The notes beneath the pieces were generated by a model. The model did not search any database. It was not told where the DNA came from and was given only the letters and a program-made list of their open reading frames with translations. Of a stretch of DNA of 25,576 nucleotides, positions 2,844 through 2,954 are shown in pieces (position 1 is the first letter of the stretch; each line of letters starts with the position of its first letter). Location of the stretch: positions 1 to 25,576 of IMG/VR virus record IMGVR_UViG_3300010342_001360. One strand, given 5' to 3'. The DNA comes from a virus. The position numbers and the translations under genes are program-made.

Positions 2844-2954
2844 AAGTAGTAGTAAAAGAAAGAGTTACTTCGCGTGAAATGGTTTCACATTTGATTTTGG
2901 TTCAAACTATGCGGTTCAAATCCGTCTGTTAATCTCTTCTGATTTTCTCTACTT
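2844..2954 (+). ncRNA. Y-RNA-like element, copy 3, carrying an acceptor-less tRNA-Gln(UUG) core
   Basis: AAGTAG/CTACTT and AGAAAGAG/CTCTTCT enclose D arm GTGA-AATGGTT-TCAC, anticodon arm TTTGA-TTTTGGT-TCAAA and T arm GCGG-TTCAAAT-CCGT. Confidence 0.75.

What the first reader, a model, noticed from the sequence alone, without database searches (positions are those of the whole stretch)
2844..2954. tRNA-Gln core in which the conserved stem replaces the acceptor stem
Seen: intact D, anticodon (UUG) and T arms in normal order but no acceptor helix or CCA. The shared Y-like stem closes the cloverleaf instead. This topology differs from copy 2, so the same stem has been grafted at two tRNA junctions. 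Inference: an uncharged anticodon-displaying decoy. A genuine tRNA-Gln(UUG) is also present at 369-441.
Basis: partly seen in the sequence, partly recalled or inferred. Interest (0 to 1): 0.7.

Follow-up and report, generated by a model that had tools for sequence, protein, structure and literature searches.

The report
Acceptor-less tRNA mimic on Ro60 handle
A huge phage encodes a small RNA that has a tRNA's D, anticodon and T arms but a long conserved stem instead of the amino-acid-accepting end; it belongs to a widespread, apparently undescribed family of RNAs linked to the phage's own Ro60 protein, and its anticodon differs from phage to phage.

Summary
Window 2874-2925 is a tRNA body with D, anticodon (UUG) and T arms and no acceptor stem or CCA. 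It is closed by a long imperfect stem (2844-2872 with 2926-2954).

It is not a decaying tRNA. I collected 31 distinct homologues from phage contigs. In these, 93% of the proposed pairs form and 22 of 30 pairs show compensatory changes.

The stem is a shared "handle" (GUAGUAA...AGAGUUACUUCG / CUCU...UUUCU). In the window it also carries a permuted tRNA (1748-1903) and almost nothing (9573-9645, 272 nt upstream of a Ro60/TROVE gene). All 30 fetched loci with a Ro60 homologue have a handle RNA on the same strand within about 2.1 kb. The best reading is therefore a Y-RNA-like partner of phage Ro60, cut out of the tRNA-array transcript by tRNA processing.

"tRNA-Gln" is not a family trait. The anticodon takes 12 values, while U33 and purine 37 stay constant and the loops match those of genuine tRNAs.

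The decoy function is plausible but untested. No Rfam family other than tRNA matches, and no paper I could search describes it. D. radiodurans Yrn1 is a partial precedent for the topology. Earlier notes of this scan report similar families on other phage DNA.

The parts
2844..2849 (+). Terminal helix, 5' strand (AAGUAG). Pairs with 2949-2954.
   Evidence: RNAalifold consensus. All six pairs hold in at least 28 of 31 homologues, and five of them show compensatory changes in at least 7 homologues.
2849..2855 (+). Conserved handle block GUAGUAA. A2851-U2948, G2852-C2947, A2854-U2945 and A2855-U2944 pair around a U2853/U2946 mismatch.
   Evidence: Invariant or nearly invariant columns in A1 and A2. 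Pair counts.
2857..2864 (+). Inner handle helix, 5' strand (AG.AAGAG). Pairs with 2934-2940.
   Evidence: AGAG/CUCU changes to GGG/CCC, GCG/CGC or CAG/CUG in homologues.
2865..2872 (+). UUACUUCG motif, the candidate Ro60 contact strand. UACUUCG is invariant. It fills the place of acceptor bases and the 8-9 linker.
   Evidence: Entropy is 0 over UACUUCG in 31 homologues. The motif is present in all cargo classes. Its resemblance to GNCGAA (YrlA) and GGUCCGA (vertebrate Y RNA), both quoted in PMC4201824, is an inference.
2874..2888 (+). D arm: stem 2874-2877 with 2885-2888, loop with G18/G19 at 2881-2882.
   Evidence: Rfam alignment. All four pairs covary. G2882 is invariant.
2890..2906 (+). Anticodon arm: 5-bp stem and 7-nt loop UUUUGGU. 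Anticodon UUG at 2897-2899, G37 at 2900.
   Evidence: Rfam alignment. All five pairs covary. Loop statistics.
2907..2910 (+). Variable region (4 nt).
   Evidence: Alignment A2.
2911..2925 (+). T arm: 4-bp stem and loop UUCAAAU.
   Evidence: Rfam alignment. G53, U54, U55, A58 and C61 are invariant in 31 homologues.
2926..2933 (+). Junction strand CUGUUAAU. CUGUU is conserved in this cargo class and forms only a short irregular helix with 2865-2868.
   Evidence: Alignment A2. The pairing is my reading of the sequence and has weak support.
2934..2940 (+). Inner handle helix, 3' strand (CUCUUCU).
2943..2954 (+). Conserved UUUUCU block followed by the 3' strand of the terminal helix (CUACUU).
2958..3044 (+). 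tRNA-Leu(UAA), starting 3 nt after the handle. RNase P cleavage at its 5' end would make the 3' end of the handle RNA.
   Evidence: ARAGORN and Rfam. In 22 of 31 homologues a tRNA starts within about 9 nt of the end of the terminal helix. The processing step itself is inferred.
2719..2841 (+). Upstream tRNA-like element (7-bp acceptor, T arm, long insert). Its 3' end abuts the handle.
   Evidence: Partial tmRNA-model match at 2700-2844 (E = 1.8e-4). The acceptor pairing GGGUAUA/UAUAUCC was read from the sequence.
1748..1903 (+). Paralogue with the same handle, carrying a circularly permuted tRNA.
   Evidence: R1 hit of 39 bits. ARAGORN calls the un-permuted sequence a tRNA in 38 of 40 variants.
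9573..9645 (+). Minimal paralogue (handle plus an 18-nt loop), 272 nt upstream of the Ro60 gene.
   Evidence: R1 hit of 32.1 bits. BLAST match of 2845-2872 to 9577-9603.
1..82 (+). 3' part of a fourth paralogue, cut by the end of the contig.
   Evidence: Full copies with a 118-120-nt cargo exist in L031, L050, L052 and L065.
9918..11618 (+). Ro60/TROVE protein gene (566 aa), the proposed protein partner.
   Evidence: Pfam TROVE match, E = 3.6e-7, above the cut-off. Match to Thermus phage phiLo Ro60 (PDB 9KOP/9L5Y), E = 1.4e-17.

Best explanation
The element is a small non-coding RNA of the Y-RNA kind and a partner of the phage's own Ro60 protein. Its two ends pair into a long, conserved, bulged stem, which I call the handle. 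On top of the handle sits a tRNA body without an acceptor stem: D arm, genuine anticodon stem-loop, short variable region and T arm, with the elbow nucleotides intact.

It is transcribed within the tRNA array. It is set free by the enzymes that trim its tRNA neighbours: 3' trimming of the upstream tRNA-like RNA, and RNase P at the downstream tRNA-Leu. It cannot be aminoacylated.

Ro60 is proposed to hold the handle, through the invariant UACUUCG strand and the GUAGUAA/UUUCU bulged helix. The tRNA-shaped head is then exposed to factors that read the tRNA elbow and anticodon loop.

The anticodon triplet changes between related phages while the loop stays a faithful copy of real anticodon loops. 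I therefore think the head serves as bait, a competitive substrate or a tether for an anticodon-reading factor. A host anticodon nuclease or an anticodon-loop enzyme is most plausible.

Shown here: the structure, the family, the linkage to Ro60 and the position inside the array. Inferred: Ro60 binding, the processing steps and the bait function.
For: Structure:
- Local Rfam tRNA match over model positions 10-63.
- 31 distinct homologues with 93.3% of cells paired, against 38-50% in slid controls.
- 22 of 30 pairs have double changes, and 0 of 500 shuffles reach the observed values.
- The invariant bases are the tRNA elbow set G19, G53, U54, U55, A58 and C61.

Family and Ro60 link:
- The handle motif occurs in 89 IMG/VR stretches.
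- Model R1 gives more than 200 hits in 116 loci.
- 30 loci carry a homologue of the window's Ro60. By my reading, each has a same-strand R1 hit within about 2.1 kb, and 21 have one within 600 nt.
- The two most complete related records (67% and 80% complete) both have a TROVE ORF.
- A 635-kb phage whose Ro60 is only 32% identical has a handle RNA about 470 nt upstream of the gene.
- The window's Ro60 matches the Thermus phage Ro60 that was shown to bind Y-like RNAs (PMC12135203).

Not chargeable: ARAGORN makes no call in any of the 18 distinct exact-motif members of this class. UACUUCG is invariant across all cargo types, so it is handle and not acceptor.

Processing: the elements sit directly between tRNA genes in most homologues. 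D. radiodurans Yrn2, tRNA-Asp and Yrn1 are likewise co-transcribed (PMC4201824).

Anticodon display:
- 12 anticodons occur among the 31 sequences.
- Column entropy is highest at position 34 (1.82 bits) and low at U33 (0.41) and position 37 (0.55).
- At least 17 changes are needed on the tree. L093 and L105 differ by one base at position 34.
- The loops equal the commonest loops of genuine tRNAs in the same loci for CUU, UUU, UCU, GUU and UAA. G37 occurs only with UUG, and most genuine tRNA-Gln(UUG) genes in the same loci also carry G37.
Against: - There is no expression, binding or end-mapping data.
- This copy lies 7 kb from the Ro60 gene. Five fragmentary contigs that carry the RNA show no Ro60 in the part recovered.
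- The single-sequence fold is no more stable than shuffles.
- The handle motif is only loosely like the published Ro60-binding motifs.
- Variation of the anticodon could be tolerated drift within a loop kept only for its shape.
- The tree is poorly resolved (18 of 28 inner branches open), so the count of changes is rough.
- The homologues were collected with motifs taken from this element, so the sample leans towards close relatives.
Confidence: 0.65

Rival explanations
1. The RNA is a Ro60 partner, but the tRNA head is only a compact, nuclease-resistant cap or a docking surface for a general partner such as PNPase or an elbow-binding enzyme. The anticodon loop is not read, and its triplet drifts freely.
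For: Chen et al. 2014 and Wang et al. 2018 raise exactly this protective or tethering role for YrlA and Yrn1. Phage phiLo Ro60 and its Y-like RNAs form complexes with host PNPase (PMC12135203). The elbow nucleotides are the most conserved part of the head.
Against: Drift alone does not explain several observations: the loops stay at exactly 7 nt; U33 and purine 37 are kept; G37 is tied to UUG; and most loops equal the consensus loops of genuine tRNAs with the same anticodon. Known YrlA RNAs do without an anticodon loop altogether (10.1101/312249).
Confidence: 0.25
2. It is a precursor of a working tRNA. One route is an unusual long-acceptor/short-T-stem tRNA (the 8/4 type). The other is an RNA that is cut and reassembled so that a chargeable end appears.
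For: The T stem has only 4 bp, as in the 8/4 tRNAs of Mukai et al. (PMC5389517, listed). Three related handle RNAs with 80-82-nt cargo do contain a complete cloverleaf that ARAGORN calls. M. smegmatis YrlA is cut by RNase P and receives CCA (PMC4201824).
Against: In this class the would-be acceptor strands do not pair: 3 Watson-Crick and 2 wobble pairs of 8, with the three positions next to the T stem mismatched. The 5' strand is invariant in every cargo class instead of covarying with a 3' strand. ARAGORN makes no tRNA call in 18 of 18 distinct exact-motif members. The phage already has a normal tRNA-Gln(UUG) at 369-442.
Confidence: 0.05
3. It is a structural or processing element of the tRNA operon with no Ro60 role. 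The stem might be a nuclease entry site, a spacer that aids RNase P/Z processing, or a landing site for homing endonucleases.
For: It always lies inside tRNA arrays, flush with its neighbouring tRNAs. The window's array is full of GIY-YIG and HNH endonuclease genes. Five fragmentary contigs with the RNA show no Ro60.
Against: The same handle, with almost no cargo, sits as a separate unit just upstream of Ro60 genes in many phages, including one with only 32% Ro60 identity. A mere spacer would not need an intact tRNA elbow and anticodon loop.
Confidence: 0.04
4. It is a decaying tRNA-Gln pseudogene whose flanks happen to pair.
For: The Rfam score is borderline and the single-sequence fold is not significant.
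Against: 31 homologues show compensatory changes in every helix, including the closing stem. Model R1 finds full-length matches with E-values down to 1e-32 in other phages.
Confidence: 0.01

Closest known systems
Deinococcus radiodurans Yrn1 (Y RNA bound by Rsr/Ro60; Chen et al. 2014, PMC4201824)
   Same: It is a Ro60 partner RNA whose 5'/3' stem takes the place of the acceptor stem. The head has a D-like region, then a stem-loop in the anticodon-arm position with a 5-bp stem, then a pseudouridine-containing T arm. It is co-transcribed with a tRNA.
   Different: Yrn1 has a 6-nt loop, no variable region and only a doubtful D arm. The phage RNA has a full D arm, a 7-nt loop that copies real anticodon loops, and a handle of different sequence. 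Sequence homology to Yrn1 could not be tested, because no reference sequence or model was at hand.
YrlA (Rfam RF02553; S. Typhimurium, M. smegmatis, mycobacteriophages; Chen et al. 2014; Wang et al. 2018, 10.1101/312249)
   Same: It is a Y RNA with a Ro60-binding end stem and a tRNA-like head with D/T elbow. It is encoded near Ro60 on the same strand, occurs in phages, and has no free CCA end.
   Different: YrlA is circularly permuted (T arm, closed acceptor-like stem-loop, D arm) and lacks an anticodon loop. The RF02553 model scores at most 10.9 bits in the window against a gathering score of 69. The window's copy 2 (1748-1903) resembles YrlA in being permuted; the finding does not.
Thermus phage phiLo Ro60 with Yrl1/Yrl2 (PMC12135203)
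   Same: A phage-encoded Ro60, which is the closest solved relative of the window's protein (E = 1.4e-17). Small RNAs encoded upstream of the gene bind it.
   Different: Yrl1 and Yrl2 are described as stem-bulge-stem RNAs with a CGAA motif and no tRNA-like body. The motif here is UACUUCG.
Phage tRNAs that counter tRNA-cleaving host defences
   Same: Phage tRNA arrays are thought to offset host anticodon nucleases. An anticodon stem-loop copy could compete for the same enzymes. This comparison rests on my own knowledge of the field and was not checked in a paper here.
   Different: Those are complete, chargeable tRNAs that replace cleaved host tRNAs. This RNA cannot be charged and is linked to Ro60.

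Membership tests
Y RNA (Ro60 partner RNA, general) | Encoded close to a Ro60/TROVE gene on the same strand | tested here: met
   The window's Ro60 gene is at 9918-11618. The minimal paralogue lies 272 nt upstream of it, and this copy 7 kb upstream, both on the same strand. All 30 Ro60-bearing loci have a same-strand R1 hit within about 2.1 kb. The same holds for LR745206.
Y RNA (Ro60 partner RNA, general) | The 5' and 3' ends pair into a long stem with conserved, bulged sequence | tested here: met
   Terminal and inner helices have compensatory changes. The blocks GUAGUAA, AGAGUUACUUCG, CUCU and UUUCU are conserved.
Y RNA (Ro60 partner RNA, general) | Published Ro60-binding motif on the 5' strand (GGUCCGA in vertebrates; GNCGAA(N)G in YrlA) | tested here: inconclusive
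   The window has CUUCGCG at that place and its paralogues have CUUCGAA or CUUCGAU. This is similar but not a match. The Rfam Y_RNA model gives no hit at E up to 10.
Y RNA (Ro60 partner RNA, general) | Physically bound and stabilised by Ro60 | not testable with these tools
   This needs pull-down or gel-shift experiments. The complex predictor takes proteins only.
YrlA (RF02553) | Match to the Rfam covariance model at or above 69 bits | tested here: not met
   The best score in the window is 10.9 bits, on the T arm of a genuine tRNA.
YrlA (RF02553) | Permuted order (T arm, closed acceptor-like stem-loop, D arm) and no anticodon loop | tested here: not met
   The order here is D, anticodon, T, with a 7-nt anticodon loop.
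Canonical tRNA (RF00005) | Acceptor stem of about 7 bp with a free 3' end | tested here: not met
   The Rfam match is local, over positions 10-63 only. ARAGORN finds nothing. The flanking strands do not pair.
Canonical tRNA (RF00005) | D, anticodon and T arms with the elbow nucleotides | tested here: met
Yrn1-type Y RNA (D. radiodurans) | End stem in place of the acceptor stem, and a stem-loop between the D-like and T arms in the anticodon-arm position | tested here: met
   The topology found and 44 matches the description in PMC4201824.
Yrn1-type Y RNA (D. radiodurans) | Sequence or model homology to Yrn1 | not tested
   No Yrn1 sequence or model was available by reference.

The most novel reading that the evidence does not exclude
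These RNAs are anticodon-specific baits. Each phage lineage mounts on its Ro60 handle a copy of the anticodon stem-loop that its host's defence nuclease (or another anticodon reader) attacks, for example Lys, Gln, Cys, Arg, Tyr or Asn. The bait could soak up the enzyme. Alternatively, when the bait is cut it could release Ro60 from its Y-RNA gate and so switch on RNA clean-up or repair. Anticodon switching on a constant scaffold would then record an arms race over tRNAs.
Probability: 0.25. Interest if true: 0.85.

Novelty: new variant of a known kind. Interest (0 to 1): 0.62.

Why it matters
Y RNAs and Ro60 are conserved from bacteria to humans, yet it is still open what the tRNA-like part of bacterial Y RNAs is for. 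Here a large natural series of Y-like RNAs keeps one handle and exchanges the tRNA part: none, acceptor-less, permuted or complete. In the acceptor-less class the anticodon is swapped between close relatives. This points to the anticodon loop as a functional surface. It also gives matched natural variants for testing what the head binds, in the setting of phage-host conflict over tRNAs. In addition, it adds a family that tRNA finders and Rfam currently miss in huge-phage tRNA arrays.

Tried and rejected
- Single-sequence folding gave z = -0.34, not informative.
- Searching for the two arms as repeats in the window gave only the self-match at up to 3 mismatches. The paralogues share shorter blocks.
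- Rfam: no family other than tRNA matches. YrlA is far below its cut-off.
- The phage nucleotide search found only tRNA and HNH-gene similarity.
- The bacterial genome scan with the handle motif returned 22 stretches. Only 6 have a full model match, and those lie on small MAG contigs, several with tRNA arrays. The hits on megabase chromosomes have no model match and are of the number I would expect by chance for an 18-base pattern (my estimate). I therefore claim no bacterial chromosomal members.
- Five fragmentary contigs (7-20% complete) with the RNA show no Ro60, which is uninformative.
- No RtcB gene was found in five related records. RNA ligase genes are present in the two most complete ones, as is usual in T4-like phages.
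- Promoter and terminator scans were not above chance.
- The pseudogene and functional-tRNA readings were considered and rejected (see rivals).
- Two reviews (PMC10870794, PMC6047535) were not held in the library.

Full report
**What the window is.**
- The window is a complete IMG/VR record of 25.6 kb, which CheckV rates as about 6% of a genome. It is therefore a fragment of a very large phage.
- Bases 1-8850 are a tRNA array. ARAGORN finds 12 tRNAs and Rfam finds 14 tRNA-model matches. GIY-YIG and HNH homing-endonuclease genes interrupt the array.
- Downstream lie genes for thioredoxin, a TROVE/Ro60 protein (9918-11618), a cold-shock protein, T4 gp30.3, dCMP deaminase, NAD salvage enzymes and two PTH2 hydrolases.
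- The Ro60 assignment rests on Pfam TROVE (E = 3.6e-7, above the cut-off). It also rests on a match to the crystallised Ro60 of Thermus phage phiLo (9KOP/9L5Y, E = 1.4e-17).

**The observation.**
- The Rfam tRNA model matches 2874-2925 over model positions 10-63 only, at 29.3 bits. The match covers the D arm (GUGA/UCAC), the anticodon arm (UUUGA, loop UUUUGGU, UCAAA; anticodon UUG at 2897-2899) and the T arm (GCGG, UUCAAAU, CCGU).
- ARAGORN does not call it, while it does call the normal tRNA-Gln(UUG) at 369-442.
- The strands that would form an acceptor stem do not pair, and there is no CCA.
- Instead, 2844-2864 pairs imperfectly with 2934-2954.
- On this one sequence the fold is not better than shuffles (z = -0.34). 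The window alone could not decide the matter.

**Homologues.**
- The 5' arm of the finding matches 9577-9603.
- The shared 5' block GUAGUA-N(4-8)-AGAGUUACUUCG occurs in 89 stretches of IMG/VR contigs.
- I scanned downstream of each match for the 3' block CUCU-N-UUUCU. The distance between the two blocks gives the cargo length. Most cargoes fall into these classes, with a few of other lengths:
  - About 14-41 nt: almost no cargo, like the window's 9573-9645.
  - 58-62 nt: D, anticodon and T arms in normal order, which is the finding's class.
  - 74-82 nt: three of these contain a complete cloverleaf that ARAGORN calls.
  - 87-120 nt: permuted tRNAs, like the window's 1748-1903.
- A second scan with the T arm plus CUGUU gave further members.
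- A covariance model (R1) built from 15 members finds more than 200 matches in 116 loci. Full-length members of the finding's class score 74-129 bits.

**Structure.**
- RNAalifold on 15 sequences predicts the terminal helix, the inner handle helices and the three tRNA arms. 18 of the 29 predicted pairs have compensatory changes.
- On 31 distinct sequences, 93.3% of cells pair, against 38-50% when the 3' partners are slid by 1-3 columns.
- In the same set, 22 of 30 pairs show a change on both sides, and no shuffle out of 500 reaches the observed values.
- Every helix contributes to this signal: the terminal helix, AGAG/CUCU (which becomes GGG/CCC, GCG/CGC or CAG/CUG), and the D, anticodon and T stems.
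- The invariant bases of the head are the tRNA elbow set G19, G53, U54, U55, A58 and C61. An L-shaped, tRNA-like head is therefore likely, though this is an inference.
- UACUUCG, in the place of acceptor positions and the 8-9 linker, is invariant in all 31 sequences and in all cargo classes. It belongs to the handle and is not a degenerate acceptor strand.

**Link to Ro60.**
- Thirty of the fetched loci hold a homologue of the window's Ro60, at 30-99% identity.
- I compared the coordinates. Each of the 30 loci has an R1 hit on the same strand within about 2.1 kb, and 21 have one within 600 nt. The hits are often arrays of three to five handle RNAs.
- This is the criterion Chen et al. 2014 used for YrlA: within 4 kb and on the same strand (PMC4201824).
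- Of ten contigs that carry the finding's class, the two most complete (67% and 80%) both have a TROVE ORF of 552-572 aa, and three fragments do too. The other five are 7-20% fragments and say nothing.
- The nearest GenBank relative of the protein is in a 635-kb uncultured phage (LR745206, 32% identity). A minimal handle RNA lies about 470 nt upstream of that gene.
- The motif scan of bacterial genomes gave only small MAG contigs, several of them with tRNA arrays, plus what look like chance hits.

**Processing.**
- In most of the 31 homologues the element lies flush between two tRNA genes. The upstream tRNA ends 1-2 nt before the terminal helix. In 22 of 31 the downstream tRNA starts a few nt after the helix.
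- In the window the upstream neighbour is an odd tRNA-like RNA ending at 2841, and tRNA-Leu(UAA) starts at 2958.
- The ends of the handle RNA are thus probably made by tRNA 3' trimming and by RNase P. This is inferred. D. radiodurans Yrn2, tRNA-Asp and Yrn1 are also made from one precursor.

**The anticodon.**
- The 31 sequences carry CUU, UUU, UUG, GCA, ACA, UCU, GUA, GUU, AUU, UAA, UCC and GCU.
- Column entropy peaks at position 34, with 1.82 bits, the highest in the alignment. It is 1.50 bits at position 36. U33 (0.41) and position 37 (0.55) are nearly fixed, and the loop is always 7 nt.
- On a tree built without the loop columns, at least 17 changes of anticodon are needed. L093 (CUU) and L105 (UUU) are identical apart from position 34. 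The window's nearest non-identical relatives carry GCU, GCA and CUU. The tree is weakly resolved, so the number is rough.
- The loops are copies of real ones. For CUU, UUU, UCU, GUU and UAA they equal the commonest loop of genuine tRNAs called in the same loci.
- G37 occurs only with UUG, in three lineages. Most genuine tRNA-Gln(UUG) genes in these loci (25 of 39), including the window's own, also carry G37.
- The phage also encodes a normal tRNA with the same anticodon: UUG in the window, and CUU in the two loci with 38 tRNAs. The mimic therefore fills no decoding gap.
- Together this argues that the anticodon loop is kept as an anticodon loop while its identity is exchanged. What reads it is not shown.

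**Comparison with what is known.**
- YrlA is permuted and has no anticodon loop. The Rfam YrlA model scores 10.9 bits at best in the window, against a gathering score of 69.
- D. radiodurans Yrn1 is described with the opposite orientation to YrlA. It has a stem-loop in the anticodon-arm position with a 5-bp stem and a 6-nt loop, no variable arm and only a doubtful D arm. That is a partial precedent for the topology of the finding.
- Phage Ro60 proteins and Y-like RNAs are known from mycobacteriophages, CcrColossus, Bacillus phage G and Thermus phage phiLo. A review of jumbo phages mentions TROVE proteins with "a tRNA-like partner" under RNA repair.
- No paper I could search describes a Y RNA with a complete anticodon stem-loop, this handle, or the interchangeable cargo.
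- Earlier notes of this scan report similar "handle plus tRNA pieces" RNAs beside Ro60-like proteins in other phages: e1-272486, e1-5643110, e1-5642392 and e1-5778953. These are unchecked AI notes, and their handles appear to differ in sequence. By sequence look-up, this element was not seen on other DNA.

**Verdict.**
- The structural reading is supported: a conserved Y-like stem replaces the acceptor stem, the RNA is uncharged, and the topology differs from copy 2.
- "Gln" is a lineage state and not a family trait.
- "Decoy" is a reasonable but untested hypothesis.
- I class it as a new variant of a known kind, the Ro60/Y-RNA particles with tRNA-like heads.

Noticed in passing
window 2719-2841: A 123-nt tRNA-like RNA directly upstream of the finding. 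It has a 7-bp acceptor stem (GGGUAUA/UAUAUCC, with G3-U70), a good T arm and a long insert in place of a normal anticodon arm. The Rfam tmRNA model matches it partially (E = 1.8e-4), but ARAGORN calls neither a tRNA nor a tmRNA.
   Followed up: partly
window 1427-1602: The Rfam tRNA model matches end to end (34.3 bits) over 176 nt. This is a tRNA-like gene with an insertion of about 100 nt. ARAGORN does not call it.
   Followed up: no
window 5397-5462 and 5570-5639: Two more weak tRNA-model matches (31.3 bits over positions 10-63; 32.7 bits over the full model) lie between two SiaC-family genes. R1 does not match them, so they are not handle RNAs.
   Followed up: no
window 6150-6600: A region of about 450 nt with no ORF of 60 aa or more on the + strand, rich in GC-containing helices, and preceded by the motif TTTTTGTATATTTGCTCTA. 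No Rfam family matches at E up to 5. A related MAG contig (L131) carries a true GOLLD RNA near a handle motif.
   Followed up: no
window 4946, 6092, 8087 and 9535-9556: A repeated AT-rich motif (TTTTYGTATATTT..., family D12) precedes several units. A similar sequence precedes the minimal handle RNA at 9573. It may be a phage promoter.
   Followed up: no
window 7706-8080 and 8776-8848: A PTH2-like ORF whose only upstream ATG is followed by an in-frame TAG, with a tRNA(CUA) suppressor about 700 nt downstream. A second, intact PTH2 gene lies at 25061-25477.
   Followed up: no
L036:1493-1612, L047:4654-4775, L005:2233-2355: Handle RNAs whose 80-82-nt cargo is a complete cloverleaf that ARAGORN calls (anticodons UCA, UAG, UGG). 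The acceptor 5' strand starts inside the handle's ACUUCG motif. These may be cut to release real tRNAs.
   Followed up: partly
L066:3560-4112, L017:10886-11565, L019:2313-3111, L026:246-1099: Tandem arrays of four or five handle RNAs lie directly beside the Ro60 gene in related phages.
   Followed up: partly
window 9679-9716: A hairpin (AGCCCGA ... TCGGGCT) followed by a run of T lies about 35 nt after the minimal handle RNA. It is probably that RNA's terminator. The terminator scan missed it because its loop is long.
   Followed up: no
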